Below are positions 31,317 to 64,000 of a stretch of 64,000 nt of DNA, in pieces. Within the stretch, counting starts at the first letter, position 1. Every line of letters begins with the position of its first letter. The DNA is from an uncultured Marinoscillum sp. (lineage in GTDB: Bacteria > Bacteroidota > Bacteroidia > Cytophagales > MED-G16), in NCBI GenBank assembly GCA_902628365.1, contig CACOMW010000004.1, forward strand, positions 8,654 through 72,653, in the 5' to 3' direction. Under the pieces are notes generated by a model. It did no database searches, had not been told where the DNA came from, and saw nothing but the letters and a program-made list of their open reading frames with translations. The translations under genes were made by a program, and so were the position numbers.

Positions 31317-32360
31317 ATGATATACTCCTACAAAAAAATATTAGATAATATAAAAAATAATATTTTTTTTAATATATATTTTTTAATGGGAGAGGAGTCC
31401 TATTTTATTGATAAAATCACAAATTATTTTGCTCAAAATTTTATAAAAGAAGAACATAAATCATTTGATCAAGAAATCATATACGGAAAAGATACAGACA
31501 TTAATACAATAATTAATAGATGCAAAAGATTTCCAATGATGTCTGATAAGCAACTCATTATCGTTAAAGAATCTCAAAATTTATCTTTTTTTAAAAATAC
31601 TAAGCAAAATGAATTTGAAAACTTTATTAATTATTTATCAAATCCTTCAAAACAAACATTTTTGATGTTTGCCTTTAAGAATAAAGTATTAGATCAACGT
31701 AAGAAGCTAACAAAAAAAATTATTGAAAGCTGTGTGGTATTGAACACAGAAGATAAAGAAAACAAAATATATGATAATCAACTTCCTCAATGGGTAAAAA
31801 GTGAAGTTAAAGAAAATAAATTTTCAATAGATGAAAAAGCAACCATCTTATTAATTGAAAACATAGGAAATAATCTTAATAAACTTGAAAATGAACTTCA
31901 AAAAGTTTACTTAAATAAAAAAGACAATGAAATCATCAATTCTAAAGATATTGAAATGTATGTTGGTATAAATAGAGATTATAACCTATTTGAATTACAG
32001 GACTCTTTAGTTAATAAAGATCTTAATAAAGCAATAAAAATAGTATCATATTTTGAATCAAACCCAAAAAATAATCCTTTACAAAAAACTATTTTATTCT
32101 TATTTAATTTTTTTAGTAAGTTGCTGTTTGTAATGTCTCATAAAATGTATGAAGCACAAAAAATATCTCAAATTTTAAAAATTCATCCTTTTGCTGCAAA
32201 ATCATATATAAAAGCAACAAGTAAATATTCTATGAATGAGGTAAAAAAAATAATAAAATATTGTAGAGAAATAGATTTAATATCTAAAGGAATTAAATCA
32301 AATAATAATAGGGAAGGAATATTATTAAAAGAATTAATCTATAAAATGACTTATGCATAA
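31317..32360 (+). CDS. holA: DNA polymerase III subunit delta
   Basis: Size about 347 aa, N-terminal YFLMGEESYFIDK pattern, and C-terminal helical domain typical of HolA. Call by pattern and position only. Confidence 0.6.
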   Translation: MIYSYKKILDNIKNNIFFNIYFLMGEESYFIDKITNYFAQNFIKEEHKSFDQEIIYGKDTDINTIINRCKRFPMMSDKQLIIVKESQNLSFFKNTKQNEFENFINYLSNPSKQTFLMFAFKNKVLDQRKKLTKKIIESCVVLNTEDKENKIYDNQLPQWVKSEVKENKFSIDEKATILLIENIGNNLNKLENELQKVYLNKKDNEIINSKDIEMYVGINRDYNLFELQDSLVNKDLNKAIKIVSYFESNPKNNPLQKTILFLFNFFSKLLFVMSHKMYEAQKISQILKIHPFAAKSYIKATSKYSMNEVKKIIKYCREIDLISKGIKSNNNREGILLKELIYKMTYA

Positions 32361-35301: not shown

Positions 35302-35302
35302 T

Positions 35303-50332: not shown

Positions 50333-52630
50333 TTATTTAACAGTAATTTCCTGACTTAAATTATTTATAGATATTTTAAACTTCCCAGGTTCAAGAACAT
50401 ATTCATTGTTATAATTAACAAATGCTAATTCATTAATTGGAAGAGTAAAATTTATGATTTTCTCCTCTCCTCCTTTTAAATATACTTTACTAAACCTTCT
50501 TAACCTTTTAACATCAGGAGTAATTGAAGCAAAAAGATCAGATGAATATACTTGAATAGTTTCATATCCAGGTATTTCACTAATATTTTTTAAATTAACA
50601 GTCATTAATATAGTATCAGATTCAGAGTATTCTACCTTATTTAAAATCATATTAGAATATTTAAACTCTGAATAACTAAGTCCGTAACCAAAATCATAAA
50701 GATTATTTACTTGTCCAACATAATTATAAGCCCCTTGGTTGTTATTTTGAACATCTGAAGGTTTATGGTAATAGGTTAATAATGAATTAGGAAAAGCAGG
50801 GTATGAATAAGGTAATTTACCAGATGGATTTACTTTTCCAGATACTATGTCAACTAAAGCATCTGCCCCAAAATTTCCAGGAAGATAAATATTTATTATT
50901 GATTTCATAAGTGGCTGTATATCAGTAATTAACCTTGGCCTACCTAAATTTAAAATTAACACAATTGGCTTGCCTGTTTTAGCTATTTCTTTTGCTAATT
51001 TTAACTGTAATTTATGCAATGTTAAATCATTCAAATCACCAGGTTTTTCTGTATATGTATTTTCACCCAAACATAGAATGACATAATCAGAGTTCTTTGC
51101 TTCTAAAACAACTTTATTTATATCTACTTCTTTCATTTCAAAGTATTGACCATCATCTATATAAGAGACTCCAGGAAGATATTTAACATATTTTTCTCCA
51201 TATGTATTTGAGAATGCCTCATAAATTGTATTAAAATTACTAGCAAATTGATCTGTTTTCTCACCTTGCCAAGAGTATGTCCATGCACCATTTAATGTCC
51301 TCATGTTGTTACCATTTGGACCTGTAATTAAAATTTTAGTTTTATTATTAATTTTGATTGGTAACAAATCATCTTTGTTCTTAAGAAGAGTAATTGCTTC
51401 AGAAGCTGCATTATATGCTAGTTTTGAATATTTTTTAGATCCAAAATTATCATAATCTTGGTAATTTGTTATTGGTACATTAAATAAGTCTAATTCCATT
51501 TTAAGTTTTAAAATTCTTTCTACTGCGTCATTAATTCTACTCATTCTGACCTCCCCTTCATTTACTAAGTCTATTAAATTTTTACAAAACACTTCGTAAT
51601 CATAAGGAACCATTGACATATCAATTCCAGCATTAATAGCTATTTTTATTGCTTCTTTTATACTTTTTGCTACTTTATCCCTTGAATGAAGGTTATTAAT
51701 ATCTTCCCAATCAGTTAATATAACCCCTTCAAATCCCAGTTCATTTCTTAAAACATTAGTAATCAAATTGTAATCAGCATGAACTGGCTTTCCATTGATC
51801 AAACCTGAATTGATCATTATACTCTTTGCCCCTAAATTGATTGCTTCTCTAAAAGGTTCAATATGATATTCTTTTAACACATGATCTGGAATATATGCTG
51901 GAGTTCTATCTTTTCCAGAAATTGTTGGATGATATCCAACAAAGTGTTTTACACAAGTAGCTACTTTATATTTATCTAAAACATTATTATTTAAGCCTTG
52001 ATACCCTTTTATCATAGCATTTCCAAACTCTTTTACTACATACGGATCTTCACCAAAAGTCTCAAATTGACGTGGAAACCTAGGATCAGTTCCTAAATCT
52101 AAAACAGGAGAAAAATTCCATGGAATGCCAGAAGCTCTTGTTTCATAAGCACATACCATAGCCATATTATAGGCATTTTCTGGATTCCAGCTTGCTGCTG
52201 TTGTAATTTGCTGCGGAAACATTGTTGCGCCATCAGTATATGTAGTACCATGAACTGCATCAATTCCATATATTACAGGAATTTTTAGTCTAGTGCTATC
52301 CATTGCATATTTTTGAATTAAAGAAATGGTTTCATACCAAACCTCTGGACTTAAAGCTGTATTATTAATTGTATTTAATACTGAACCAATCTTATAGTCT
52401 ATTAATGCTTTCTTTGCTCTTTTTAGGTTTATTTCAAGAGGAAATTTAGATTTCCATTTATTTGGACCTTTAGCTATCACTGTAAGATTAATTTGAGTCA
52501 TCTGACCTACTTTCTCCTCAAGTGTCATTCGAGAAAGGATTCTTTGAACTTTTTGATCTAACTCACCTGATAATTCTTTTTTTTTAGAACATGAAAAAAT
52601 TATAAAAACAAAAAAGAAAAATATTCTCAT
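50333..52630 (-). CDS. bglX: glycoside hydrolase family 3 beta-glucosidase / exo-beta-glucanase
   Basis: GH3 N-domain (KHFVGYH, nucleophile region GVILTDWEDI), alpha/beta sandwich domain, and C-terminal FnIII-like domain. Lipobox IIFSC. Confidence 0.85.
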   Translation of the reverse strand: MRIFFFFVFIIFSCSKKKELSGELDQKVQRILSRMTLEEKVGQMTQINLTVIAKGPNKWKSKFPLEINLKRAKKALIDYKIGSVLNTINNTALSPEVWYETISLIQKYAMDSTRLKIPVIYGIDAVHGTTYTDGATMFPQQITTAASWNPENAYNMAMVCAYETRASGIPWNFSPVLDLGTDPRFPRQFETFGEDPYVVKEFGNAMIKGYQGLNNNVLDKYKVATCVKHFVGYHPTISGKDRTPAYIPDHVLKEYHIEPFREAINLGAKSIMINSGLINGKPVHADYNLITNVLRNELGFEGVILTDWEDINNLHSRDKVAKSIKEAIKIAINAGIDMSMVPYDYEVFCKNLIDLVNEGEVRMSRINDAVERILKLKMELDLFNVPITNYQDYDNFGSKKYSKLAYNAASEAITLLKNKDDLLPIKINNKTKILITGPNGNNMRTLNGAWTYSWQGEKTDQFASNFNTIYEAFSNTYGEKYVKYLPGVSYIDDGQYFEMKEVDINKVVLEAKNSDYVILCLGENTYTEKPGDLNDLTLHKLQLKLAKEIAKTGKPIVLILNLGRPRLITDIQPLMKSIINIYLPGNFGADALVDIVSGKVNPSGKLPYSYPAFPNSLLTYYHKPSDVQNNNQGAYNYVGQVNNLYDFGYGLSYSEFKYSNMILNKVEYSESDTILMTVNLKNISEIPGYETIQVYSSDLFASITPDVKRLRRFSKVYLKGGEEKIINFTLPINELAFVNYNNEYVLEPGKFKISINNLSQEITVK

Positions 52631-52733
52631 AATAGAAGTTTAATCATAATTTAAAAAAGAAAAACGGAAAAATTTATATTTTCGATGTAAATTCGCACTC
52701 TTAAGATATTTAATCATTGATTAAGATTTGATA

Positions 52734-55700
52734 ATGCTATCTAAAAAAAAATTTTTATTTTTTTTATTTTTATTTCAAGCTCATTTTATCTTTTCTCAAA
52801 ACCATACTGTAAATGGTAGAATTGTTGATGAAAATGGAGATCCTCTTCCTGGTGCAACCATTATTGTTAAAGGAACAACTAAAGGAGCAGTAACCGACTT
52901 AGATGGGTTATTTTCTATAACAACATACGAAGATACTATTTTAGTAGCATCTTTTTCAGGATATGAAAAAAGGGAAATATCAATCAATGGTCTTTCTTTA
53001 TTAGACATTTCTCTTTCACCAGATATAGAAACTTTACAAGAAGTAATAGTAATAGGATATGGTTCTCAAGAAAAAATGAATGTTACCGGTTCAGTTTCTA
53101 CTATTAAAAATGATGAATTAACTCTTGTCCCTGTACCAAATACATCAAATTTATTATCAGGAAGAGTACCTGGCGTGATGAGTAGACAAAACTCTGGATT
53201 ACCTGGAGGTGAAAATACTCAAATAAGAATCAGAAGTTTTAGCGAAGCACCTCTAATTTTAGTTGATGGAGTGCAAATGGATTTTTCAAGAATTGATCAA
53301 AATGATATTGCTAGTATAAGTATATTAAAAGATGCATCAGCTGCTGTATATGGTGCTAGGGCCGGAAATGGCGTTGTTTTAGTTACAACAAAGCGAGGAG
53401 AAAAAGGCACTCCTAATATTTCTTATAATTCAAGTTTTACCCTTCAGTCAGCAACTCAATTTTTAGAGCATGTATCTGCATCTCAATATGTAGAATTAGT
53501 TAGAGAAGCCAATTTAAATGATTTTGCAGATGCAAATGCAACATTTACTGAAGATGATATTCTAAAATATAAAAATAAAATGCCAGGATATGAAGGCGGA
53601 GATTGGGTTGGCGCACTTATCGATAATGGAGCGTATATGCATCAACACAATTTAAGTATATCGGGTGGCACTGATAATGTAAAATACTTTACCTCTTTTG
53701 GTTATGTAGATCAGGAAAGTTTTTTTACTTCAAGAGATTTTGACTATAAACGTTATAATGTTAGGTCTAATTTAGATTTAGAGTTAAATGAAAACCTAAA
53801 TTTTTCTGTTGATGTATCATACAGGCAAGATATAAGAAAAAGACCTGCAAAAAGTGCTCTATCTAATATTTGGATTGACTTATCAACTGCTCAACCTATA
53901 TTTCCTACTGAACTTCCAATTAACACTCCCCTACCTGACCCTACAAAGCCAGCTGTAGCTTATTCTGGATCTACAACTGGTAATAGAAATCCTCTAGCTA
54001 GATCATATAGAAATATATTTGGTTTTTATGACAGGTTTGATAATACATTTCGTGGAAAATTAGATTTTGAATATAAAATTCCTGGATTGCCAGAATTAAA
54101 ACTTAATGCAAATATGAATATTCAAATATTAGATCAATCTGAAAAAGCATTTAGAAAACCCTATAATATTTACAGATACAGCCCATCTACTGACACTCTA
54201 ATTCTTGAAGGAACAGGAAATGGAGTTTCAAATATTTCAGACGCTCAATTTAGAAGAACAATGCTTTATCCATTAATTTCTGCAAAATATGATAAGGAAG
54301 TAGGTAACCACAGCATAAATATTTTATTGTTAGCTGAACAAACCACTCGAAATTATAGTAGATTCTCTGCTTCAAGACAAAACCTTTTCACGACTTCTAT
54401 TCCAGAATTATTTATAGGATCTGAAAACGATCAATTCAATGATGGTTCTTCGGGACCTGATATAGGAAGAAAAAGCATTGTAACTAGATTGAATTATAGA
54501 CTAAAAAACCGTTATCTATTTGAATCAACATTTCGCGCTGATGGAAACGTATTGTTTGCCCCTACAACAAGATGGGGATATTTTCCAAGTTTTTCATTTG
54601 GATGGATTATTTCTGATGAACCATTTTTTTCATCTCAAAAAAATATCAATCTTAAAATTAGAACCTCATTTTCTCAACTAGGAGATGATTCAGCGAACGG
54701 AATAGCTGGCTTTGATTACCTGACTGGATATGAAACTATAAGTTCATATTTATTTGGAAACAATAATGCTGAAACTACTATAAGAACATTAGGAGAAGTT
54801 AATCCGTTTTTAACCTGGGAGATTATGTCAATGTATAATTTTGGTATTGAAGCCTCATTCCTTCAAGGTCGTCTTGAATTTGAAGCTGATTTATTTTATC
54901 GTAAAAGAGAAAATATACTTAGTAATGATCAAAAATCAGTTGCAAAAGAAGGGGGGTTTAAATTACCTCTAACAAATATTAATGTTAGCGATGATCGTGG
55001 CATTGAATTACTAGCGGTATATCAGCAAAATGTTGGATCCTTTAATTTTGAAGTATCCCCAAATGTCAGTTATGGAAAAGAAAAATATATTGTCAGAAGA
55101 GACCTGGAAGATTTTACTGATCCAGATAACATAAGAATTTATGGAAAAGAAGGTGAATGGGTAAATCGTAGAATTGGATATATTTCGGATGGTATCTTTA
55201 TGAGTCAAGATGAAATTAACAACCACTCTGTGATTCAAGATGGAAACGGGAACCTTATTCTAAGACCAGGAGATATCAAGTATAAAGACCTTGATGGAAA
55301 TGATACTATCAATTTTAGGGATCAAAATCTTATAGGATATGCAAGTAATATGCCCGAATTATCGTATGGTATGAATTTTAGTGTAAAAAATAAAAATCTT
55401 AAATTATCTATGTTGCTTCAAGGAGCGTCAAAATTTAGCATTTATATTAATGGACCTGCCGCAACGATGTTTAGCAATGGATCCATTCCCCTATCCTATC
55501 ATTATAATTATGCATGGCAACCCCACCCAAATGATCCTTCAAATAATATAAATCCTAATGCAATATTACCTGCTGCAAGCTTTGCCGCCAATACAAACAA
55601 TTCAAAGGTTTCTGATTTTTGGCTGAGAGACGTTCGATATTTAAGAATTAAAAATATAAACCTTTCATACAACATTCCTAAAAAGTTTATTTCTAAAGTC

Positions 55701-55868
55701 GGATTTAAGTCTACTCAAATTTATTTTGCTGCTGAAAATTTAATTACTTGGACAAACCTTGGTATTTATAAAAATTCTTTTGACCCAGAATTTGATCCAA
55801 ATACCCAAACGACAAGAAGGTATCCAATTACAAGGTCATTTACAGTTGGACTTAAAGCATCATTTTAA
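52734..55868 (+). CDS. susC: SusC/RagA family TonB-linked outer membrane protein
   Basis: CarboxypepD_reg-like N-domain GRIVDENGDPLPGATIIVKGTTKGAVTDLDGLFSI, plug VIGYGSQEKMNVTGSVSTI, and a roughly 1040-aa barrel ending ...TVGLKASF. Confidence 0.9.
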   Translation: MLSKKKFLFFLFLFQAHFIFSQNHTVNGRIVDENGDPLPGATIIVKGTTKGAVTDLDGLFSITTYEDTILVASFSGYEKREISINGLSLLDISLSPDIETLQEVIVIGYGSQEKMNVTGSVSTIKNDELTLVPVPNTSNLLSGRVPGVMSRQNSGLPGGENTQIRIRSFSEAPLILVDGVQMDFSRIDQNDIASISILKDASAAVYGARAGNGVVLVTTKRGEKGTPNISYNSSFTLQSATQFLEHVSASQYVELVREANLNDFADANATFTEDDILKYKNKMPGYEGGDWVGALIDNGAYMHQHNLSISGGTDNVKYFTSFGYVDQESFFTSRDFDYKRYNVRSNLDLELNENLNFSVDVSYRQDIRKRPAKSALSNIWIDLSTAQPIFPTELPINTPLPDPTKPAVAYSGSTTGNRNPLARSYRNIFGFYDRFDNTFRGKLDFEYKIPGLPELKLNANMNIQILDQSEKAFRKPYNIYRYSPSTDTLILEGTGNGVSNISDAQFRRTMLYPLISAKYDKEVGNHSINILLLAEQTTRNYSRFSASRQNLFTTSIPELFIGSENDQFNDGSSGPDIGRKSIVTRLNYRLKNRYLFESTFRADGNVLFAPTTRWGYFPSFSFGWIISDEPFFSSQKNINLKIRTSFSQLGDDSANGIAGFDYLTGYETISSYLFGNNNAETTIRTLGEVNPFLTWEIMSMYNFGIEASFLQGRLEFEADLFYRKRENILSNDQKSVAKEGGFKLPLTNINVSDDRGIELLAVYQQNVGSFNFEVSPNVSYGKEKYIVRRDLEDFTDPDNIRIYGKEGEWVNRRIGYISDGIFMSQDEINNHSVIQDGNGNLILRPGDIKYKDLDGNDTINFRDQNLIGYASNMPELSYGMNFSVKNKNLKLSMLLQGASKFSIYINGPAATMFSNGSIPLSYHYNYAWQPHPNDPSNNINPNAILPAASFAANTNNSKVSDFWLRDVRYLRIKNINLSYNIPKKFISKVGFKSTQIYFAAENLITWTNLGIYKNSFDPEFDPNTQTTRRYPITRSFTVGLKASF

Positions 55869-55870
55869 TT

Positions 55871-57607
55871 ATGGAAAACAATAAAACAATATTTATAGTT
55901 ATACTAGCTCTTTTATTTCAATTGGGATGTAATGAACCTTTTGATTTAAAAAGAAATGATATCATATCAGATGAATTAGTATTTGACGATCCAATTTTAG
56001 CAGATGCTTTTCTTTTTGATTTATATGATAGAGCTCAATTCCATATTAAATCTGGAAATGGAAATCTAAATATGGGGATGATTAGTTCATTAGGGGGTGA
56101 ATCTAGAAATTACGGAGTTTCTTGGCAAACACCATATACTCAAGTTTTAGATGTTGATTATAATGAAAATGGACTTCTAGGAAAAGTTATAGATTATTAT
56201 GATTATGCCCTTATAAGGGAATGCAATCAAATGATTACAAGACTTCCTTTATCTAATAATTTAAATAAAAATTTTATAGATACCAGAGTCTCAGAAGCAA
56301 GGTTTATTCGTGCTCATGCATACTTTGAAATGGTAAAGCGTTTTGGGGGTGTGCCGCTTGTTACAGACGTGATTCCAGTTCAAGGCACGTCTGACCAGCT
56401 ATATAGATCTAGAAATTCCGAAAAAGAAATATATGATTTCATTAAAAATGAAATGGATGAAATAAGTGCTTTGCTCCCATCTATTCCTGAAGCAGATGGT
56501 AGAATTACAAAATGGACTGCTCTTGCACTAAAAAGTAGAGCCATGCTTTATGCTGCAAGTGTTGCAAATTTTGGCTCTCAACAACTAAATGGACTACTTG
56601 GATTTCCTATAAGTGACGCTTCATCGTATTATCAAGCATCATTGGATGCTTCAAATCAAATTATTCAATCAGGAGCTTTTTCATTATACAAAAAATCTGA
56701 TGATCCAGTTAAAAACTTTGGTGACTTATTTATAGATGAAAATAACAATTCAGAAGTAATATTTGTAGAAAAATATGACTACGATGCTGGCAAAAGCCAT
56801 CAATGGGATGCTTTAGCCCAACCATCAGGTTTTGGCTTTAATTGGAGCTCAAATTATACGGTGTACCTAGAAACATTAGAGCAATTTGATTTTACAGATG
56901 GAGCTACTGGTAAGATTGATCGTTCTTTATATGATGATGCAACACCAATTGATCCAAACAGATTTTTTGAACAAAGAGATCCAAGAATGAGAGCTTCTAT
57001 ATTTTATCCTGGAGCTTCATTTAAAAATGGGACTGTATTCTTTCATAGAAGTATGACAGGAACTAAAGAAGGATGGCCTGCAACTGGACCTTCAAAACAT
57101 ACAGGAAGCCTTGCTACAGGCTTACTAGTTCGAAAACGAACAAACCCAAATACTCCAGATGCAACAAGGTCAAGTACTGATTATATTGTATATAGGTATG
57201 GAGAAATATTACTCAATTATGTAGAAGCAGCGTTTTATCTTGGAGATCCAAATGGTGATATGGTAGCCACTATAAACCAACTAAGAGATAGAGCAGGTAT
57301 GCCTTCATTAAATCTGGCTCAGCTTACAGAAGAGAAAATAAGACAAGAGAGAAGGTGTGAGCTAGCATTTGAGGACCATACATTTTGGGATTTGAGAAGA
57401 TGGAGAATAGCTGTAGCTGAACTAAATAATGTTCAAAGGCATAGATTACACTACAGATACAATGCAAATACAGATAAATATACTATAGAAATGGCTGAAG
57501 GTGATCTTGGTGGAGTTCGTATCCACCCTGAAAGAAATTATTATTATGCTTTAGGGTTAAACAGATTAGCGGACAACCCAGCATTAATTGAAAACCCAGG
57601 ATATTAA
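55871..57607 (+). CDS. susD: SusD/RagB family nutrient-binding outer membrane lipoprotein
   Basis: Lipobox FQLGCN. Starts 2 nt after the susC stop. SusD-like helical core (RFIRAHAYFEMVKRFGGVPL; ERRCELAFEDHTFWDLRRW). Confidence 0.9.
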   Translation: MENNKTIFIVILALLFQLGCNEPFDLKRNDIISDELVFDDPILADAFLFDLYDRAQFHIKSGNGNLNMGMISSLGGESRNYGVSWQTPYTQVLDVDYNENGLLGKVIDYYDYALIRECNQMITRLPLSNNLNKNFIDTRVSEARFIRAHAYFEMVKRFGGVPLVTDVIPVQGTSDQLYRSRNSEKEIYDFIKNEMDEISALLPSIPEADGRITKWTALALKSRAMLYAASVANFGSQQLNGLLGFPISDASSYYQASLDASNQIIQSGAFSLYKKSDDPVKNFGDLFIDENNNSEVIFVEKYDYDAGKSHQWDALAQPSGFGFNWSSNYTVYLETLEQFDFTDGATGKIDRSLYDDATPIDPNRFFEQRDPRMRASIFYPGASFKNGTVFFHRSMTGTKEGWPATGPSKHTGSLATGLLVRKRTNPNTPDATRSSTDYIVYRYGEILLNYVEAAFYLGDPNGDMVATINQLRDRAGMPSLNLAQLTEEKIRQERRCELAFEDHTFWDLRRWRIAVAELNNVQRHRLHYRYNANTDKYTIEMAEGDLGGVRIHPERNYYYALGLNRLADNPALIENPGY

Positions 57608-57608
57608 T

Positions 57609-58976
57609 ATGAAAAATACCTATATATTTTCTTTAATTTGTAGTTTATTATTCATTTTCACAAATTGTAATGATGATCTAAATATTTCAAGAACAGATAG
57701 AGCAAATAGCGCTGGAACTTCAACTCAAGAGCTAATATTAGATAAAAAAGGCATTGGAATGTCTTATAAAGAACTTACCTGGTCAACAAGGATTGGTCGA
57801 TTAAAACCATTTTGGCATTATTCTTGGAATCGTGATCTTAAAAATAATATTCCTGACAGTGTAGAATATGTTCCAATGTTTTGGGGAGCAAATAGTGTAA
57901 ATGATAGTGAAATAATTAGAATAAAAGGTTTAATAAATGAAGGAAAAGTAAAACACGTATTAGGGTTTAATGAACCTGATTTGGAAACACAAGCAAATAT
58001 GAGTGTTGATGAGGCAATAGCTTTATGGCCTAAATTAGAAGAATTAGGAGTTCCTTTAGGTAGTCCTGTTCCTGCAGAGACTCAAGGAGTTTGGCTTGAA
58101 GAATTTATGCAAAAAGCTGGTGAAAATAGTCTTAGAGTTGATTTTATTGCTCTTCATATATATCAAAGTAATAACCCTCAGTTATTTTTAGATATAGTTG
58201 ATAGGATTTATGAAAAATATGATCTACCTATCTGGATTACAGAAATGTCAGTAGTTGACAATCAAGCAGAAACTGTTGAAGAAAATAGATACACTTCATC
58301 ACAAATTTTAGCTACTATGAGAAAACTTTTACCTGAATTATATAACAGAAAGTATGTTGAACGCTTTGCATGGTTTTCAGCCACAAAAGATTCCCCTAAC
58401 TACCCTAGACAAGTTGCATCAATTCTTTTTGATGATCAAGATAATCTAACTGAACTTGGTCAATTTTATGCTAATTATAAATCTAACCCCTTGAGTGGTA
58501 AGGGTTTAGACAAAGAAGTTGAAGTGGTAGAAGAAGTTGATGGGAACCTGTTACAAAATGGAACTTTTGAAACAGGAAAAATTGATCCGTGGGCAGGATT
58601 TAAAAATGCTGTTATCTCCTCTTCAGTTCAAGAACCTAATACAGGAAACTATTTAGCAAGAATAGAACCTCATGATGGTTCTATTTACCAAATAGTTGAT
58701 GTAGAAGCAGGAAAAACATATACCTACACGTTTTTTCATAGATTTAAAAGTATCCCTCCCAATACATTTAATGCAGTTATTAGAAATGAAGAGGGAGATG
58801 AAAAAAAGTTTTTTACCTACGAAATACCTAAAACAGATATTTGGAAAGAAAATAAGTTAGAGTTTACCGTTCCAGATGGAGTAACAAAAGTAAGAATTGT
58901 ATTTTATAAACCTCAATTAGACCCCCTTTTACCATCATTTTTTTTAGATGACGTTGTGATTTTACTCAAACCTTAA
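57609..58976 (+). CDS. GH128-type (Pfam Glyco_hydro_cc) putative beta-1,3-glucanase with C-terminal CBM4/9-like domain, lipoprotein
   Basis: Lipobox FIFTNC. FWHYSWN, EYVPMFWG, LGFNEPD (acid/base Glu) and PIWITEM (nucleophile Glu) fit the Glyco_hydro_cc pattern. C-terminal NLLQNGTFETG...FLDDV is CBM-like. The ATG at 57609 is preferred over the track TTG at 57588. Confidence 0.65.
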   Translation: MKNTYIFSLICSLLFIFTNCNDDLNISRTDRANSAGTSTQELILDKKGIGMSYKELTWSTRIGRLKPFWHYSWNRDLKNNIPDSVEYVPMFWGANSVNDSEIIRIKGLINEGKVKHVLGFNEPDLETQANMSVDEAIALWPKLEELGVPLGSPVPAETQGVWLEEFMQKAGENSLRVDFIALHIYQSNNPQLFLDIVDRIYEKYDLPIWITEMSVVDNQAETVEENRYTSSQILATMRKLLPELYNRKYVERFAWFSATKDSPNYPRQVASILFDDQDNLTELGQFYANYKSNPLSGKGLDKEVEVVEEVDGNLLQNGTFETGKIDPWAGFKNAVISSSVQEPNTGNYLARIEPHDGSIYQIVDVEAGKTYTYTFFHRFKSIPPNTFNAVIRNEEGDEKKFFTYEIPKTDIWKENKLEFTVPDGVTKVRIVFYKPQLDPLLPSFFLDDVVILLKP

Positions 58977-59076
58977 ATAATTGTCAAATCTTAATATTAA
59001 AAACTTTTAAAATAAAATTTTGGTTTATATATTAGTCGATTATTTTATAATTTATATCGATTCTAAACTAATTATT

Positions 59077-59556
59077 ATGAATACATTTTACTTAAAATAC
59101 CTATCCACACTATTAATTTTAGCTTTATTTTCTCTATCCTGCAATGATGATGCACTTAAGGATGATGAAGAAAATAGCTTGTTTCTTGAACATGCAGCCT
59201 TATTAGAAGGTACATGGAAAGTAAAAGATGCTTCTAGTGTAATAAAAGACGGTAATGCGGTAAATGTTTTTCAAAATATGTCATTTGTAATTGGTAAATA
59301 CGATATGAATGAAGACAAATGCAGCTATACTACGGACCACCAAGAAAATAAAGGTACAGAAGTATGGCCTAATTCTGGAACTTGGAAATTTAATGGACAA
59401 AAAGGCTTTAGAAAAGCAACTGACAAAGACCTTTTATTAAGAAATGATAATGTGAAATTAAGTATTTCTGTTTCTGCAAATGAACTTGTAGTTAATTTTT
59501 CTATAGCTGGTGGCTTTAAAAAAGGGAATTGGACATTCTATTTTGTCAAACAATAA
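59077..59556 (+). CDS. hypothetical small PUL-associated lipoprotein
   Basis: Lipobox ALFSLSC at ATG 59077 (the track start at 59020 adds a non-signal extension). GTWKV... lipocalin-like pattern. Position matches SusE/F-type accessory genes. Confidence 0.5.
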   Translation: MNTFYLKYLSTLLILALFSLSCNDDALKDDEENSLFLEHAALLEGTWKVKDASSVIKDGNAVNVFQNMSFVIGKYDMNEDKCSYTTDHQENKGTEVWPNSGTWKFNGQKGFRKATDKDLLLRNDNVKLSISVSANELVVNFSIAGGFKKGNWTFYFVKQ

Positions 59557-59598
59557 ACTATTTAAAATATTAAAACATTAAATTAAATTAACATTATT

Positions 59599-62500
59599 AT
59601 GAAAAAATTATACTTTATTATATTCTTAACAATCTCTTCTTTTCTTTCTTACGGACAGAAATACTTTGTTGGTGGTCATGGAAATAACGAATGGTCTAAT
59701 GCTTCGAACTGGAGCAATGGGAAACCAAATGCTTTAAATGCTGTGGTTGTTATAAAAGCCGCAACAGTAGTTGTTGATCAAAATGTTACTATAGGTTGGC
59801 TTAAAAAAGCTAAAATTAATGGAACAAAATATAATACTGTTATAACTACTTCAAATAATTCTACATTAACCCTTAGTGGTAAAGGAACTGGAGGTAATAC
59901 TATTTCTATTGTAAATCTTGAAGTAGGAAAAGATTTAAAATTGGATTTGCCTGTTAAAATATTAAAAGAAGGAAATCAAGAATATGAAGATATTAAAGTG
60001 AATGAGCCAGGTTCTGCATCTATAACATTTGGCTCAAATTCAACTCTTACTTTAGAGAATCATATAAGAATAATTGCATCTCTTGGAACTAGAAGAGTAC
60101 ATTTTAATGGTACATTATTAGGTGCTAAGTCAATAAAATTCGGAAGTGCTGGAACTAATGTTAATACTAGAAATACAATTCAATTTGGATCAGGGTTTAA
60201 CGCTGCTAATTGGACAGGAAATATAGTATTTAGTCAAAATTATTGTCAAGTGAATTCCTTCGTTGCAAATTCAAATACTCTCCTACCTCAAAACTCCAAA
60301 ATTGAAACATTAGATAATGTAACTGGTTCCTTGCTGAAATTAGAGGGATCAAATGCTTACATTTATGGGATTCTTAAATCAGCTGGCGGAAATAATGGAG
60401 GCCCATTAAATGTTACTATAAATGCCAATCAATCTTATATGGGAATTTTAAATGTTGGAGCTCAAAATATAAATGTTAATATAGCTAATGGTGTCACTCG
60501 AGTTTGGTTTGCAGATCATTCTGGAGTAGCAAACTGGGGAATTGGTAAGCTAAATATTCAATCTGGTTTTGCTGCTAACGAAATAAAATTTGGTAGTAAT
60601 GCCTCTGGACTTTCTGCAGCAAATCTTGCAAAAGTAGCTGTTCATGTAGCAGGAGCAATATCTTTAGATGCTTCAGGCTATCTAAAGGTAGCAGGCTCAA
60701 GTGAATTTACAAATGCAGGAGGAAATAATCTTTGGTCTAATGCAGCAAACTGGAGCGATGGGGTTCCTACTTCAACTGTTGCTGCAACAATTAAGGCTAC
60801 ATCTGTAATTTTAGATGTAAATGCAGAAGTTAAACAATTAAAATTAGCAAATAATATAGGTGATGCTACAATTTCAAATCCAGCTAATAATAATTCTACA
60901 CTTACAATTAACGGTACTGGGGTAACACAGCCAATCCAAAACAACTCAGGAAATGATGATCTTGACTTTAATGTAAAAGTGATTTTACCTTCTAACGATG
61001 CGGAAAGTTACTCAAATACTGTCGCCGGTGCTGCTAAAACTGCTAGTATGACTTTTAGTAAAGAGTTAGCATTAACAGGAAGTGGTGTTACAAAATTTGT
61101 AGCTCAAGATAATAAAAGTGTTCATTTAAACGGTATTTTAAGTGGCAGTGGGCCGCTACATTTTGCAGGTATTTCAAAAGTAAATTTTGGAAGTGAATTT
61201 AATGCCAGCAATTATACAGGCGATATCACACTAATTGGAAATAATAGTACTGTAATTTCAAATACTAAAGATAACAACACATTCCTTCCTGCTGGCAGAT
61301 TATTACAAACAGAAGCTGGCGCAGGTAAAGGTGATGGACATACAATTACTGTTAATGGAGCAAATACATTAAAAGGAAATATAAAAACTACCGCTGGAGA
61401 TGTAAGCTTAAATATAAATAAAAGTCAATCTAGTGTTGGAACAATGACTATAGGAGATGGTGATTTAAATCTTACTATAAACGCCAATGCAACCGAAGTT
61501 AACTTTGCTGACCATGCTAATGTGAATTGGGGAGCTGGAAAACTTGTGGTATCAGGTTTTGTAGATAATGTAATGAAATTTGGAACCAATGCTCAAGGGC
61601 TTACTGCGGCACAACTAGCCAAAATAGATGTTGGAGGTAGAAATCCAGAAATTGCAGCTAATGGAAAGCTTACTATTCCAGTGGCTACAGCAAATCTTAC
61701 TGTAAACACTACAGATATAAAAGAATCAGGTGCAACATCTGCTACTGTTACAGTCACATTAAGCAAGGCTTTAGCTACTAATGAAACGGTAACATTAGCT
61801 GCTACCGGTACTGCTACAGGAAGTGGAACAGATTATACATTAAGTACTACATCTATAGCTATAGCTGCTGGTCAAACAACAGGAACAGCTACAGTGACTG
61901 CAGTTGACGATGTTATTGATGATAATAATGAAACTGTAATCATTGATATTGCCAGTGTTTCAGCAAATGTGGTTGAAAATGGAACGCAACAGGTAACTAT
62001 AACAATTGAAGATAATGATATAGGTGCTTCTGATTTTGATAATGGAGGTGCAAATAACAGAGCTGGAAGTGGTAATAATTTATGGTCCAATGCTGCAAAC
62101 TGGAGTAATGGCAAGCCTAATATAACTACTGCAAAAGTTACTCTAAAAGCATCACCAATAGTAGATAGTGATGTTGAAGTGGCACAAATTAAAGTTGCTA
62201 CTACAGCTGGTGACTTAACGGTAAGTTCTGCTAACAACTCAACGCTTACCTTAAATGGAACTGGTGTTACTCAACCTGTCCAACACAATGCTGCTGGAAA
62301 GGATTTGAAATTTAAAGCGTTAAAAGTAGTGATTTCTTCTAGTGACGAGGAAATTGTTAAAGCGACAGGCATTGGTTTATCTACTATAACATTTGATACT
62401 GATTCTGAGCTAACGCTTAGCGCACAAACAGAGTTTGTTGCAGAAGGAAATAGAGAAATTCGTATGAATGGGGTTTTAAAAGGTGATAAAGCATTTATTG

Positions 62501-64000
62501 TAGGAAACGGAACAGATGTGTTCTTTGGAAATGCAGCAAATAATAGCACATTTACTGGTGGATTTAAATATAAAGGTACTAACTCTAAAATTACCTCTAA
62601 TATTACTCCAAGTGCTAATAACCCAAGTCTATTCCTAAAGGCTGGGGCTTCTGTACAACCTGGAGTAGCAGCAAATGCTAGTTTGATTCTAAACGGAGCA
62701 AATACTTATGGTGGTAACATTATGATTCAAAACAATAAAGAATTTGTTGTTAAAGTGAATGCAAATCAAGCTGATGCTGGACTAGTCGATTTAGATTCTG
62801 GTAACTTGAAGTTAGTGATGGGTGCAAATGTTACTTCTTTAGCATTTGATAATGCATCTCAAGTATCATGGGGAGCTGGAACCATGCAGATAACAAATTT
62901 TGTTGATAAAGTTATAAGCTTTGGAACAGATTCAACAGGTTTAACTGTAGCGCAACTTGCTAAAATAAATATTGGAAATACAGATGCAGTAATTGATACT
63001 AATGGAAAGATAGCAGGTAAAGTTACAGCACAATCTACCTTCACTAACGCTGGAGGAGATCATTTATGGTCTAACAAGGCAAACTGGAGCAATGGAATAC
63101 CAAATACAACTCTTGCTCAAATTGTTTTAACTGACTCTCTAATATTAGATACAAATGCTGAAATTGCACAGTTAAAAGTTTCTGGTGTTAATACACCTAA
63201 TGTTGTGACTGTCACATCAAATAATAATTCTACATTAACTTTCAATGGAAAATCTGTTGGTGCTATTATACAGAATAACAGAAGTGATTTAGATTTATAT
63301 TTTGATATTAAAGTTGTCAGTTCACCTGATACGATAAAAAGCATACAAGTTAATGGAGGTGGTACCTCTAGTATAACTTTTGGTCGAACTTCAGATTTAA
63401 CATTAAATAAAGCTACAAGGTTTTTAGCTCAAGGTGCAAATAGGAATATTAAATTACATGGAATATTAAGAGGTGCAGGTGCATTCCAAGTTGGGGCTAT
63501 GTCTTCGGCAATATTTGAACCAGCTTCAGACAACGCCAATTTTACTGGTGTATTAGACTTATATGGTCAAGGAGCAACTATAACTGCTAAAACAACAGGT
63601 TCAGTAAACAGTCCTAAATCATTTTTGGATGCTGGTAAAAAACTATTGGTAACTGGAATTGCTGCTAGGCTTAATTTAGATGCTGATAACATTTTAAATG
63701 GAAACATCGAAAATGGGCCATATGGAGCTCTTAAAGTATTTGTAAATAAAAAACAAGAAACAGTTGGGACTATAAAAGTAGGTCAATCTGATTCTGAAAT
63801 TGTTTTGGATACCGCACTATACAGTACAACTAATACGATTGTTTCTTTTGCTGATCACTCTAATGTTACATGGGGATTAGGTAAACTTATTGTTAAAGGG
63901 TTTAAAGATAAATCGCTTAGATTTGGAACAAACGCTAGTGGTTTGCCACAAAATCTACTTGATAAAGTGTTTGTTGGTGGTGGAAAAGTTGTAATTGACT
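59599..64000 (+). CDS. giant secreted repeat protein (>=1467 aa, 3' end beyond window), beta-helix/adhesin-like modules plus a Calx-beta-like domain
   Basis: Hand translation from ATG 59599 in frame 1 found no stop up to base 64000. Signal peptide MKKLYFIIFLTISSFLSYGQ. Four tandem modules. Not in the supplied ORF track, since it has no stop in the window. Confidence 0.85.
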   Translation, partial: MKKLYFIIFLTISSFLSYGQKYFVGGHGNNEWSNASNWSNGKPNALNAVVVIKAATVVVDQNVTIGWLKKAKINGTKYNTVITTSNNSTLTLSGKGTGGNTISIVNLEVGKDLKLDLPVKILKEGNQEYEDIKVNEPGSASITFGSNSTLTLENHIRIIASLGTRRVHFNGTLLGAKSIKFGSAGTNVNTRNTIQFGSGFNAANWTGNIVFSQNYCQVNSFVANSNTLLPQNSKIETLDNVTGSLLKLEGSNAYIYGILKSAGGNNGGPLNVTINANQSYMGILNVGAQNINVNIANGVTRVWFADHSGVANWGIGKLNIQSGFAANEIKFGSNASGLSAANLAKVAVHVAGAISLDASGYLKVAGSSEFTNAGGNNLWSNAANWSDGVPTSTVAATIKATSVILDVNAEVKQLKLANNIGDATISNPANNNSTLTINGTGVTQPIQNNSGNDDLDFNVKVILPSNDAESYSNTVAGAAKTASMTFSKELALTGSGVTKFVAQDNKSVHLNGILSGSGPLHFAGISKVNFGSEFNASNYTGDITLIGNNSTVISNTKDNNTFLPAGRLLQTEAGAGKGDGHTITVNGANTLKGNIKTTAGDVSLNINKSQSSVGTMTIGDGDLNLTINANATEVNFADHANVNWGAGKLVVSGFVDNVMKFGTNAQGLTAAQLAKIDVGGRNPEIAANGKLTIPVATANLTVNTTDIKESGATSATVTVTLSKALATNETVTLAATGTATGSGTDYTLSTTSIAIAAGQTTGTATVTAVDDVIDDNNETVIIDIASVSANVVENGTQQVTITIEDNDIGASDFDNGGANNRAGSGNNLWSNAANWSNGKPNITTAKVTLKASPIVDSDVEVAQIKVATTAGDLTVSSANNSTLTLNGTGVTQPVQHNAAGKDLKFKALKVVISSSDEEIVKATGIGLSTITFDTDSELTLSAQTEFVAEGNREIRMNGVLKGDKAFIVGNGTDVFFGNAANNSTFTGGFKYKGTNSKITSNITPSANNPSLFLKAGASVQPGVAANASLILNGANTYGGNIMIQNNKEFVVKVNANQADAGLVDLDSGNLKLVMGANVTSLAFDNASQVSWGAGTMQITNFVDKVISFGTDSTGLTVAQLAKINIGNTDAVIDTNGKIAGKVTAQSTFTNAGGDHLWSNKANWSNGIPNTTLAQIVLTDSLILDTNAEIAQLKVSGVNTPNVVTVTSNNNSTLTFNGKSVGAIIQNNRSDLDLYFDIKVVSSPDTIKSIQVNGGGTSSITFGRTSDLTLNKATRFLAQGANRNIKLHGILRGAGAFQVGAMSSAIFEPASDNANFTGVLDLYGQGATITAKTTGSVNSPKSFLDAGKKLLVTGIAARLNLDADNILNGNIENGPYGALKVFVNKKQETVGTIKVGQSDSEIVLDTALYSTTNTIVSFADHSNVTWGLGKLIVKGFKDKSLRFGTNASGLPQNLLDKVFVGGGKVVID
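59692..60732 (+). repeat. giant-protein module 1 (347 aa period)
   Basis: Opens with WSNASNWSNGKPN. Contains NNSTLTLSGKG, ADHSGVANWGIGKLNIQSGF, and KFGSNASGLSAANLAKV. Confidence 0.8.
60733..61680 (+). repeat. giant-protein module 2
   Basis: Opens with WSNAANWSDGVPT. Contains NNNSTLTINGTG, ADHANVNWGAGKLVVSGF, and KFGTNAQGLTAAQLAKI. Confidence 0.8.
61690..62019 (+). other. Calx-beta-like domain inserted between modules 2 and 3
   Basis: ESGATSATVTVTLS...TVTLAATGTATGSGTDYTLSTTSIAIAAGQTTGTATVTAVDDVIDDNNETVIIDI...QQVTITIEDND matches the Calx-beta pattern (DY...G.T...v.i.DD...E..E.f.v.l...I.D.D). Confidence 0.7.
62083..63066 (+). repeat. giant-protein module 3 (328 aa period)
   Basis: Opens with WSNAANWSNGKPN. 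Contains NNSTLTLNGTG, DNASQVSWGAGTMQITNF, and SFGTDSTGLTVAQLAKI. Confidence 0.8.
63067..64000 (+). repeat. giant-protein module 4 (cut by window edge)
   Basis: Opens with WSNKANWSNGIPN. Contains NNNSTLTFNGKS, ADHSNVTWGLGKLIVKGF, and RFGTNASGLPQNLLDKV. Confidence 0.8.

What the first reader, a model, noticed from the sequence alone, without database searches (positions are those of the whole stretch)
59599..64000. Giant secreted ORF missing from the ORF track: at least 1467 codons of tandem 330-350 aa modules, directly downstream of a PUL
After 59556 the supplied track lists only five short minus-strand ORFs. Translating frame 1 codon by codon from ATG 59599, I found no stop up to base 64000. 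The ORF was probably dropped only because it has no stop inside the window. The N-terminus MKKLYFIIFLTISSFLSYGQ is a typical flavobacterial signal peptide. The body is four tandem modules. Each opens with W-S-N-x-x-N-W-S-(N/D)-G-x-P (W codons at 59692, 60733, 62083, 63067). Each continues with NN(N)STLT(L/I/F)(S/N)G, then (A)DH(S/A)xVxWGxGK(L)xxxGF, and closes with (K/S/R)FG(S/T)(N/D)(A/S)xGLxxxxL(A/D)K(V/I). The modules are clearly homologous but diverged, even at the best-conserved motif, so they are old duplications rather than an assembly artefact. The G/N/T/S-rich, short-strand character and the W..NW..G.P opener resemble the openers of autotransporter-associated beta-strand-repeat / parallel beta-helix passenger domains, but I cannot assign a family by eye. 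A multi-module surface giant sits co-directionally 42 nt after the last PUL gene. That suggests a cell-surface adhesin or glycan/particle-binding appendage coupled to polysaccharide foraging. This architecture may not be functionally described.
Basis: partly seen in the sequence, partly recalled or inferred. Interest (0 to 1): 0.8.

Follow-up and report, generated by a model that had tools for sequence, protein, structure and literature searches.

The report
Secreted four-module PUL accessory protein
The open reading frame is a real 1629-residue protein of an uncultured marine Bacteroidota bacterium, exported by the type IX secretion system and built from four copies of an undescribed beta-solenoid module that recurs in sulfatase-rich polysaccharide utilization loci, most likely to capture the target glycan.

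Summary
Frame 1 is open from ATG 59599 to base 64000 (1467 codons). It holds four homologous ~325-aa modules (32-40% identical). A database protein identical over all 1467 residues shows the full length is 1629 aa. It ends in thrombospondin-type-3 calcium repeats and a T9SS type A sorting domain, so it is large but not a giant.

The module matches no Pfam, NCBIfam or PDB sequence family. AlphaFold2 models it with confidence (pLDDT 93.9) as a capped beta-solenoid, and no solved structure is significantly similar. The family has about 975 clusters at 50% identity. All members seen are unnamed or "hypothetical".

In 20 of 25 dereplicated informative loci the gene lies within 10 kb of SusC/SusD, GH128, GH3 or sulfatase genes, often directly after SusD. 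Two homologues embed a GH128 domain between modules. No basic, histidine or glutamate position is conserved.

The best reading is a non-catalytic, multivalent glycan-capture protein: a T9SS-delivered functional analogue of the lipoprotein SGBPs. Binding itself has not been tested. I file it as a new variant of a known kind, of moderate interest.

The parts
59599..64000 (+). Coding sequence of the module protein, cut by the window end. It covers residues 1-1467 of 1629; the stop lies about 489 nt beyond the window.
   Evidence: Open frame. 100% identical to the first 1467 aa of P0195, which is 1629 aa. dN/dS 0.13-0.16 against L001 and L007.
59599..59658 (+). Sec-type signal peptide MKKLYFIIFLTISSFLSYGQ. 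It has no lipobox cysteine.
   Evidence: Read from the sequence. The same MKK...F/Y-x-Q pattern directly precedes the first module in nearly all complete family members, and only 1 of 43 has a lipobox-like match. No signal-peptide predictor was run.
59659..60699 (+). Module 1 (aa 21-367), the most diverged copy
   Evidence: Pairwise BLASTP E = 1e-32 to 1e-43 against the other modules. Module HMM score 448 bits.
60700..61680 (+). Module 2 (aa 368-694), the copy that was modelled
   Evidence: AlphaFold2 pLDDT 93.9, pTM 0.91. The model has about 30 short strands, a short N-terminal helical turn at the WSNxxNW motif and C-terminal helices at GLTxxQL.
61705..62019 (+). Calx-beta-like domain (aa 703-807) inserted between modules 2 and 3
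   Evidence: PF03160 E = 1.7e-5, 25.2 bits, just under the cutoff of 27. The orthologue in L007 scores 23.5 bits. Other family members carry clear Calx-beta domains.
62044..63021 (+). Module 3 (aa 816-1141)
63034..64000 (+). Module 4 (aa 1146-1467). The last ~8 residues of the module lie beyond the window. In the full protein they are followed by two thrombospondin type 3 repeats and the T9SS type A sorting domain.
   Evidence: C-terminus from P0195. TIGR04183 35.3 bits against a cutoff of 23. PF02412 and PF18962 on the L007 orthologue.
59020..59556 (+). DUF5004 lipocalin-like lipoprotein, the last upstream PUL gene (likely true start ATG 59077)
   Evidence: PF16395 27.4 bits against a cutoff of 21.6. 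Lipobox ...SLSC-NDD. The same gene precedes the module gene in L007, L015, L021, L053, L056 and L067.
57588..58976 (+). GH128 catalytic domain plus CBM4_9, a lipoprotein (likely true start ATG 57609)
   Evidence: PF11790 and PF02018. PDB 6UAQ family E = 1e-32. Lipobox ...FTNC-NDD.
55871..57607 (+). SusD-like glycan-binding lipoprotein
   Evidence: PF07980, PF14322
52728..55868 (+). SusC-like TonB-dependent transporter
   Evidence: PF13715, PF07715
50333..52630 (-). GH3 glycosidase, divergently transcribed; marks the upstream edge of the locus
   Evidence: PF00933, PF01915, PF14310. Genes further upstream are housekeeping.

Best explanation
The gene encodes a 1629-aa, non-catalytic accessory protein of a SusC/SusD polysaccharide utilization locus. 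The protein crosses the inner membrane with a plain Sec signal peptide. It crosses the outer membrane through the type IX secretion system by means of its C-terminal type A sorting domain. Its working parts are four separately capped beta-solenoid modules of a previously undescribed family. These are joined by a Calx-beta-like domain and followed by thrombospondin-type calcium-binding repeats. I infer that the modules bind the locus's target glycan, a polymer attacked by GH128 (beta-1,3-glucanase family), GH3 and sulfatases. Several modules in one chain would give multivalent binding that holds polymeric or particulate substrate at or near the cell, within reach of the surface GH128 lipoprotein and the SusCD importer. 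It would do the job that lipoprotein SGBPs (SusE/F, SGBP-B) do in gut Bacteroides, but with a different fold and a different export route. Shown: the ORF, the modules, the sorting domain, the predicted fold class, the conserved gene neighbourhood, the GH128 fusion, and the lack of catalytic-type conservation. Inferred: glycan binding, the identity of the substrate, retention on the cell surface versus release, and the overall shape.
For: Export: signal peptide without a lipobox and a T9SS type A sorting domain above the curated cutoff on the identical full-length protein. Neighbourhood: window and L007 have SusC-SusD-GH128/CBM4_9-DUF5004-MODULE, and L007 continues with two sulfatases. L004, L005, L014 and L018 have SusC-SusD-GH128-MODULE(-GH3-sulfatase). 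L006, L044 and L052 have SusC-SusD-GH3-sulfatase-MODULE. L062-65, L070-72, L074 and L082 have the MODULE directly after SusD. Overall, 20 of 25 dereplicated informative clusters carry at least one PUL marker within 10 kb: sulfatase 15, SusC/SusD 12, GH3 7, GH128 6. Domain fusion: P0005 and P0006 carry a GH128 catalytic domain between modules 2 and 3, so there the module acts as an appended module of that enzyme. Co-transcription is plausible: same direction, 42-nt gap, no terminator-like site. Non-catalytic character: across 200 modules from 138 proteins the conserved positions are W, F, G, N, Q and L, only one acid (D39, 89%) is conserved, and no K/R, H or E column reaches 70%. Copy number varies from 1 to 5, as is usual for binding modules. 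Fold: AlphaFold2 pLDDT 93.9. The nearest solved structure, though not significant, is the cellulose-binding beta-helix domain of a tapirin.
Against: No binding experiment exists and no recognised carbohydrate-binding family matches. I could not inspect model coordinates, so there is no evidence for an exposed aromatic platform or groove. The conserved aromatics may all be core or cap residues. Five of 25 informative clusters show no PUL marker, and one relative lies next to sprA. The locus sample was drawn by motif and homology, has no measured genomic background rate, and used home-made marker HMMs. Some T9SS type A cargo is released rather than surface-anchored (general knowledge), so 'surface' is not established. 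The two-module model left the relative orientation of the modules undefined (pTM 0.45).
Confidence: 0.55

Rival explanations
1. A general adhesin or cell-surface coat protein. The beta-solenoid modules would mediate attachment to algal cells, particles or other bacteria without specificity for the locus's glycan. Co-location with PULs would then reflect only co-regulation during particle colonisation.
For: The accessory domains in the family are typical of adhesins: Calx-beta, cadherin-like, Big_9, LVIVD, lamin-tail and thrombospondin repeats. Beta-helix adhesins (Hap, HMW1, TibA, Ag43, SRRP) are among the structural neighbours. One relative lies just downstream of the T9SS translocon gene sprA.
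Against: The position inside PULs is tight and recurrent, often directly after SusD. The in-frame fusion with a GH128 catalytic domain is hard to explain for a substrate-blind adhesin. Even the sprA-adjacent relative has a GH128+CBM4_9 gene next to it.
Confidence: 0.2
2. A new family of beta-helix carbohydrate-active enzymes (lyase, hydrolase or other), with each module a catalytic domain acting on a sulfated or anionic algal polysaccharide.
For: Many polysaccharide lyases and hydrolases are right-handed beta-helices. Several appear among the weak structural neighbours: pectate lyases, PL6 alginate lyase, fucoidan lyase FdlA, polygalacturonases, dextranase. The loci are rich in sulfatases but hold few recognised backbone-cleaving enzymes.
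Against: No K/R, H or E column is conserved and only one acidic position is. Up to five copies per chain is unusual for catalytic domains. No structural match is significant (best E = 0.44, TM 0.33). No Beta_helix or pectate-lyase HMM hit appears in 33 modules.
Confidence: 0.1
3. A passive spacer or stalk. The modules would be rigid rods whose only role is to hold other functional domains (GH128, cadherin-like, lamin-tail) away from the outer membrane.
For: Modules always lie N-terminal to variable accessory domains, and the anchor-side sorting domain is C-terminal. Copy number varies.
Against: The window protein and the 102 single-module members carry little or nothing besides module(s) and the sorting domain. 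A spacer there would present nothing. With a C-terminal anchor, the modules are the distal part, not the stalk.
Confidence: 0.1
4. A non-functional ORF, pseudogene or assembly artefact.
For: The ORF has no stop in the window, and the sequence is repetitive at protein level.
Against: Full-length intact orthologues of 1629-1640 aa occur in at least seven independent contigs. dN/dS is 0.13-0.16. The DNA repeats are only 60-81% identical. GC content matches the neighbouring genes.
Confidence: 0.02

Closest known systems
Surface glycan-binding proteins of Bacteroidota PULs (SusE/SusF, SGBP-B)
   Same: Both are encoded in the PUL, commonly right after susC/susD. Both are non-catalytic, poorly conserved in sequence, and built from a variable number of repeated domains (SGBP-B description in PMC12016534; positions).
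   Different: SGBPs are lipoproteins built of beta-sandwich or CBM-like domains. This protein has no lipobox, is a T9SS type A cargo, and is built of ~325-aa beta-solenoid modules. Binding has not been shown for it.
Tapirins of Caldicellulosiruptor (PDB 6N2C)
   Same: Both are non-catalytic beta-helix proteins tied to polysaccharide degradation. From my own knowledge, tapirins bind cellulose. 6N2C is the top structural neighbour of the module.
   Different: The match is not significant (E = 0.44, TM 0.33, 11% identity). Tapirins come from Gram-positive thermophiles and have a single beta-helix domain, no T9SS and no SusCD context.
Beta-helix passenger domains of autotransporters and two-partner secretion adhesins, including PATR-repeat proteins (PF12951)
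   Same: Same predicted fold class. Both are N/G/T/S-rich with short strands. Hap, HMW1, TibA, Ag43 and EspC appear among the weak structural neighbours.
   Different: No PF12951 or TIGR02601 match in the protein or in any of 33 modules. There is no C-terminal beta-barrel. Export is by T9SS. The protein has discrete capped modules rather than one long helix.
T9SS-secreted PUL components such as ChiA of the Flavobacterium johnsoniae chitin locus (PMC5127042)
   Same: Both are PUL-encoded proteins exported by T9SS rather than as lipoproteins.
   Different: ChiA is a recognised multi-domain enzyme (GH18). This protein has no recognisable catalytic domain and no conserved catalytic-type residues.
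GH128-plus-sulfatase PULs noted in North Sea Polaribacter clade 3-b (PMC7242417)
   Same: Same unusual pairing of a GH128 gene with several sulfatases next to susC/susD in marine Bacteroidota. The substrate was not identified there either.
   Different: The passages I read from that paper do not mention the module protein. I could not check whether those Polaribacter loci contain one.

Membership tests
T9SS type A cargo (TIGR04183 / PF18962 Por_Secre_tail) | C-terminal sorting domain that matches the family model above the curated cutoff | tested here: met
   TIGR04183 scores 35.3 bits against a cutoff of 23 at residues 1554-1628 of P0195, which is 100% identical to the window ORF over 1467 aa. 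PF18962 scores 41.9 bits against 27 on the L007 orthologue. The domain itself lies beyond the window end.
T9SS type A cargo (TIGR04183 / PF18962 Por_Secre_tail) | N-terminal Sec signal peptide | tested here: met
   MKKLYFIIFLTISSFLSYGQ, read from the sequence. The pattern is conserved across the family. No predictor was run.
T9SS type A cargo (TIGR04183 / PF18962 Por_Secre_tail) | T9SS machinery present in the same genome | not tested
   No T9SS gene was found among the window ORFs scanned. A relative's contig carries sprA next to its module gene.
PUL surface glycan-binding proteins (SusE/F, SGBP-B) | Encoded in a PUL next to susC/susD | tested here: met
   Window. 12 of 25 informative clusters have SusC/SusD within 10 kb, and several have the module gene directly after SusD.
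PUL surface glycan-binding proteins (SusE/F, SGBP-B) | Lipoprotein signal (lipobox cysteine) for surface anchoring | tested here: not met
   There is no cysteine in or after the signal peptide. Only 1 of 43 complete family members has a lipobox-like match. The four neighbouring PUL proteins do have lipoboxes.
PUL surface glycan-binding proteins (SusE/F, SGBP-B) | Beta-sandwich or CBM-like domain architecture | tested here: not met
   AlphaFold2 predicts a beta-solenoid. No CBM family matches.
PUL surface glycan-binding proteins (SusE/F, SGBP-B) | Demonstrated binding of the PUL's glycan | not testable with these tools
   Needs a binding assay.
PATR, autotransporter-associated beta strand repeat (PF12951 / TIGR02601) | Match to the repeat model | tested here: not met
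   No hit at E<=1 for the whole ORF in Pfam or NCBIfam, nor for any of 33 diverse modules in Pfam.
PATR, autotransporter-associated beta strand repeat (PF12951 / TIGR02601) | C-terminal autotransporter beta-barrel | tested here: not met
   The C-terminus is thrombospondin repeats plus a T9SS sorting domain.
Right-handed parallel beta-helix enzymes (pectate-lyase-like; PF13229 Beta_helix) | Match to the sequence model | tested here: not met
   No hit in 33 modules. In P0134, PF13229 matches a separate region (919-1047), not the module.
Right-handed parallel beta-helix enzymes (pectate-lyase-like; PF13229 Beta_helix) | Significant structural similarity to a solved member | tested here: inconclusive
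   All top Foldseek hits are beta-helix proteins, but the best has E = 0.44 and TM 0.33. The viral library gave the same picture.
Right-handed parallel beta-helix enzymes (pectate-lyase-like; PF13229 Beta_helix) | Conserved catalytic acid/base or calcium-binding residues | tested here: not met
   Only D39 is conserved (89%). No K/R, H or E column reaches 70% over 200 modules.
Calx-beta (PF03160), for the insert at aa 703-807 | Match above Pfam's gathering score | tested here: inconclusive
   25.2 bits against 27 with near-full model coverage, 13-119 of 119. The orthologue scores 23.5 bits. The acidic stretch DDVIDDNNE is present.
GH128 (for the neighbouring gene 57588-58976) | Sequence match to the family's catalytic core and to solved members | tested here: met
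   PF11790 E = 8.6e-49. PDB 6UAQ and 13 other Glyco_hydro_cc chains, best E = 1.1e-32. I link these PDB entries to CAZy family GH128 from my own knowledge.

The most novel reading that the evidence does not exclude
The module is not a binding unit but the founder of a new family of beta-helix carbohydrate-active enzymes. It would be, for example, a lyase or endo-hydrolase that opens a sulfated algal glycan, supplying the backbone-cleaving activity that these sulfatase-rich, CAZyme-poor loci otherwise seem to lack.
Probability: 0.1. Interest if true: 0.8.

Novelty: new variant of a known kind. Interest (0 to 1): 0.55.

Why it matters
PULs are the main way marine Bacteroidota turn algal polysaccharides back into CO2 and biomass. 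In PULs for sulfated glycans, many genes are still 'hypothetical'. This work defines one such unknown as a coherent domain family. It has about 975 clusters at 50% identity, a confident predicted fold, a fixed place in the protein (right after the signal peptide), a fixed export route (T9SS) and a fixed genomic setting (susC/susD with sulfatases, GH3 and GH128).

If the module binds glycan, pelagic Bacteroidota have a second, T9SS-delivered class of glycan-capture proteins alongside the lipoprotein SGBPs known from gut species. The module would also become a new carbohydrate-binding family and a handle for finding and typing PULs of unknown substrate. All members seen are from uncultured organisms, so the proposal can be tested directly with recombinant protein.

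Tried and rejected
- The search for related loci with the 33-module alignment failed because no stretch was conserved enough. I replaced it with the single protein and a tighter 6-module alignment.
- The look-up of the identical full-length protein P0195, meant to fetch the source contig beyond the window, found no record. The downstream context therefore rests on the 91% orthologous locus L007.
- The PDB sequence search with the module profile found nothing at E<=1.
- Foldseek against PDB and BFVD found nothing at E<=0.001.
- The two-module AlphaFold2 model, built from a shallow 10-sequence alignment, had pTM 0.45 and low-confidence caps. It says nothing about whether the modules stack into a rod.
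- Hydrophobicity autocorrelation of the module profile showed only weak peaks at lags 2, 28 and 52. I do not use it as independent support for a solenoid.
- Four literature searches (GH128/PUL/marine; T9SS/PUL/beta-helix; GH128/sulfatase/PUL/GH3; type IX secretion/SGBP) found no description of this module.
- Source names are absent, 'hypothetical protein', or reflect accessory domains.
- I considered and rejected an ice-binding beta-solenoid. Two such structures are among the weak hits, but the PUL context and the warm-ocean samples argue against it.
- I considered and rejected an assembly artefact, a pseudogene, and PATR membership.
Full report
OBSERVATION

Frame 1 from ATG 59599 is open to base 64000, 1467 codons. 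The ATG is the first start after an in-frame TAA at 59584-59586. The mechanical ORF list omits ORFs that run off the window end. After 59556 it shows only short minus-strand ORFs, and I regard those as antisense shadows.

The protein splits into four modules: aa 21-367, 368-694, 816-1141 and 1146-1467+. All pairs align over their full length at 32-40% identity, E = 1e-32 to 1e-66. At DNA level the best-kept 42 nt are 71-81% identical and longer stretches 60-71%. Start-to-start spacings are 1041, 1350 and 984 nt, and Tandem Repeats Finder reports nothing relevant. These are therefore old duplications, not an assembly artefact.

The extra 360 nt in the middle spacing is a Calx-beta-like domain (aa 703-807; PF03160, 25.2 bits against a cutoff of 27). 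GC content matches the neighbouring genes.

THE WHOLE PROTEIN

A first homology search found P0001. It is 97% identical over the whole query, 1630 aa long, and carries PF18962. Its 90% cluster holds full-length members of 1629-1640 aa from at least seven independent contigs. One of them, P0195, comes from NCBI, is 1629 aa long and sits on a 76.5-kb contig. It is identical to the window ORF at 1467 of 1467 residues, so the window lacks only 162 codons.

The missing tail starts with the last residues of module 4. Two thrombospondin type 3 calcium-binding repeats (DQDGDGVRD..., DSDGDGVSDD...) follow, and then a T9SS type A sorting domain. TIGR04183 scores 35.3 bits against a cutoff of 23. On the 91% orthologue in L007, PF18962 scores 41.9 bits and PF02412 scores 28.8 bits.

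dN/dS against two independent relatives is 0.15 and 0.16, and 0.08-0.24 per region. The gene is real, intact and under purifying selection. It is large but not a giant.

THE MODULE

Neither the ORF nor any of 33 diverse modules matches a Pfam family consistently at E<=1. In particular there is no PF12951 (PATR), PF13229 (Beta_helix) or CBM hit. NCBIfam gives nothing for the module region. A module profile finds no PDB sequence at E<=1.

I modelled module 2 with AlphaFold2 on a 33-sequence alignment (A1). The model has pLDDT 93.9 and pTM 0.91. It consists of about 30 strands of 3-5 residues. There is a short helical turn at the N-terminal WSNAANW motif and short helices at the C-terminal GLTAAQLAK motif. 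I read this as a capped beta-solenoid, with each module an independent folding unit.

Foldseek finds no significant neighbour in PDB. The best is the tapirin C-terminal domain 6N2C, at E = 0.44 and TM 0.33. Every top hit is nonetheless a beta-helix protein: tailspikes, TibA, HMW1, Hap, Ag43, pectate and alginate lyases, polygalacturonases. The viral library gives the same picture. Membership in any described family is not.

A two-module model (P0012, 10 sequences) was only moderately confident (pTM 0.45). It does not define how the modules sit relative to each other, so I make no claim of a rigid rod.

THE FAMILY

A profile search of 1.84 billion representatives finds 975 proteins at E<=1e-3, 256 at E<=1e-10 and 114 at E<=1e-30. 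Among the best 150 plus the first set, 200 full modules occur in 138 proteins:
- 102 proteins with one module
- 23 with two
- 3 with three
- 7 with four
- 3 with five

The architecture is constant. A plain signal peptide (MKK...F/Y-x-Q) comes first and the first module begins at about residue 21. Variable accessory domains follow (Calx-beta, Big_9 and cadherin-like, Big_2, lamin-tail, LVIVD, thrombospondin repeats), and a T9SS sorting domain ends the chain. Only 1 of 43 complete members has a lipobox-like match.

Over the 200 modules, the positions conserved at 75% or more are W12, S13, N17, W18, D39, F119, F163, N219, N222, N240, Q243, F269, W277, F294, G295, Q305, L306 and several glycines. 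The only conserved acid is D39. No K/R, H or E column reaches 70%. That is the pattern of a scaffold (aromatic stacks, Asn ladders, caps), not of a beta-helix lyase or hydrolase active site.

Where a source gives a name, it is 'hypothetical protein' or reflects an accessory domain. The only organism labels are Flavobacteriales MAGs and one single-cell genome.

GENOMIC SETTING

In the window the gene follows, in the same direction:
- SusC (52728-55868)
- SusD (55871-57607)
- a GH128 catalytic domain plus CBM4_9 (57588-58976; PF11790 E = 8.6e-49; solved GH128-type structures 6UAQ and relatives, E = 1e-32)
- a DUF5004 protein (59020-59556)

A GH3 gene lies on the other strand at 50333-52630. The 42-nt gap before the module gene has no terminator-like site. 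Everything upstream of the GH3 gene is housekeeping.

GH3, SusD, GH128-CBM and DUF5004 all have lipoprotein signals, two of them with C-N-D-D after the lipobox. The module protein is the only T9SS cargo of the locus.

Window 50334-64000 is colinear with L007 at 90.9% nucleotide identity. L007 is a single-cell genome labelled 'uncultured Marinoscillum sp.', order Cytophagales. In L007 the orthologue (1632 aa) is followed by two sulfatases.

The same neighbours recur around more distant homologues (36-60% identity):
- L004: SusC-SusD-GH128/CBM-MODULE
- L005: sigma/anti-sigma-SusC-SusD-GH128/CBM-MODULE-GH3-sulfatase
- L006: SusC-SusD-GH3-sulfatase-LacI-MODULE
- L003 and L008: two module genes in tandem followed by GH3 and sulfatases
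- L013: a divergent SusC-SusD pair with two further T9SS cargo genes

Even the relative next to sprA (L012) is followed by a GH128+CBM4_9 gene.

For a broader sample I drew 79 loci from metagenomes using the cap motif. I annotated them with HMMs built from the Pfam-verified SusC, SusD, GH128, CBM4_9, GH3, sulfatase and DUF5004 sequences. I dereplicated at 85% identity and required at least 3 kb outside the module genes. After that, 20 of 25 clusters have at least one marker within 10 kb: sulfatase 15, SusC and SusD 12 each, GH3 7, GH128 6. Distant single-module members also sit directly after SusD (L070-72, L074, L082) or beside sulfatases (L058-60, L078, L086).

There are caveats. The sample is not random. 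No background rate was measured. The five negatives include three weak, partial matches.

DOMAIN FUSION

P0005 and P0006 (2012 and 2015 aa) carry a GH128 catalytic domain between modules 2 and 3. They sit in the same kind of locus, before GH3 and sulfatases. In these proteins the module is an appended module of the very enzyme family that lies next to it in the window.

INTERPRETATION

The evidence bearing on function is as follows:
- T9SS export
- lack of catalytic-type conservation
- variable copy number
- the slot after SusD that SGBP genes usually occupy
- the GH128 fusion
- calcium-binding linkers

Together these fit best a non-catalytic, multivalent glycan-capture protein that serves the locus. 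It would be a functional analogue of lipoprotein SGBPs with another fold and export route (confidence 0.55).

The substrate is not settled. GH128 is a beta-1,3-glucanase family and GH3 fits beta-glucan or xylan trimming. But sulfatases are the most frequent neighbours, and the canonical laminarin enzymes are absent from the loci I read. 'Laminarin' is therefore only one possibility. GH128-plus-sulfatase PULs of unknown substrate have been noted in North Sea Polaribacter (PMC7242417).

The rivals are a substrate-blind adhesin (0.2), a new beta-helix enzyme family (0.1), a passive spacer (0.1) and an artefact (0.02).

COMPARISON AND NOVELTY

By function and position, the closest known things are SGBPs. 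By fold and role, they are tapirins. By fold class, they are autotransporter-type beta-helix adhesins. By export route, they are T9SS-secreted PUL proteins such as ChiA.

The protein meets the tests for T9SS type A cargo. It fails two defining tests for SGBPs (lipoprotein signal, beta-sandwich domains). It also fails the tests for PATR and for beta-helix enzymes.

Four full-text searches found no description of the module. I rate it a new variant of a known kind: an undescribed domain family doing, most likely, a known kind of job by an unusual route. Interest is moderate (0.55). The finding is a concrete, testable assignment for a recurrent 'hypothetical' of marine PULs, not a new principle.

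Noticed in passing
window 50333-59556: All four other secreted PUL proteins (GH3, SusD, GH128-CBM4_9, DUF5004) have lipoprotein signals. In two of them C-N-D-D follows the lipobox. The listed TTG starts at 57588 and 59020 are probably wrong; ATG 57609 (MKNTYIF...) and ATG 59077 (MNTFYLKY...) give proper signal peptides.
   Followed up: partly
L003 3-11142 and L008 5207-18250: Some genomes carry two module genes in tandem. The second embeds a GH128 catalytic domain between modules 2 and 3. The copy in L008 is broken into many ORFs, which looks like frameshift error in a long-read assembly.
   Followed up: partly
L062-L065 (e.g. L063 2236-15336): SusC-SusD is followed by three consecutive module genes with one, two and one modules. 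A sulfatase lies further downstream.
   Followed up: no
L012 981-13331 / L017: One relative (P0018, 1267 aa) lies 1.5 kb downstream of sprA, the T9SS translocon gene, after gcvH, a VanZ-like gene and a TonB_C gene. A GH128+CBM4_9 gene follows on the minus strand. Its first module is interrupted by an insertion of roughly 90 aa; a related fragment is named 'cupredoxin domain-containing' by NCBI.
   Followed up: no
L013 6669-14007: Next to the module gene of P0011 is a divergent SusC-SusD pair followed by two further T9SS-sorted proteins (439 aa and 504 aa, the latter cadherin-like) and no recognised CAZyme. It is a PUL-like locus made only of transporter and secreted non-enzymes.
   Followed up: no
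whole window: GC content is only 26.9%. The closest named genome is a single-cell assembly labelled Marinoscillum (Cytophagales), whereas other family members are labelled Flavobacteriales. The taxonomic label of the source is therefore uncertain.
   Followed up: partly
window 35294-37012 (+): A 572-aa ORF with no Pfam match at E<=1e-4. It overlaps the end of a 982-aa TPR-repeat protein (32353-35301) by 8 nt.
   Followed up: no
window 60678-63344 (-): Seven minus-strand ORFs of 54-121 aa lie entirely inside the module gene. They are most likely antisense shadows of the N/G/T/S-rich coding frame.
   Followed up: no
L007 17141-20227 (-): Downstream of the two sulfatases in the orthologous locus lie a beta-propeller protein (YNCE/lactonase-like) and a 666-aa protein with no Pfam match. 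The same pair follows the sulfatases in L002, so they may belong to the locus.
   Followed up: no
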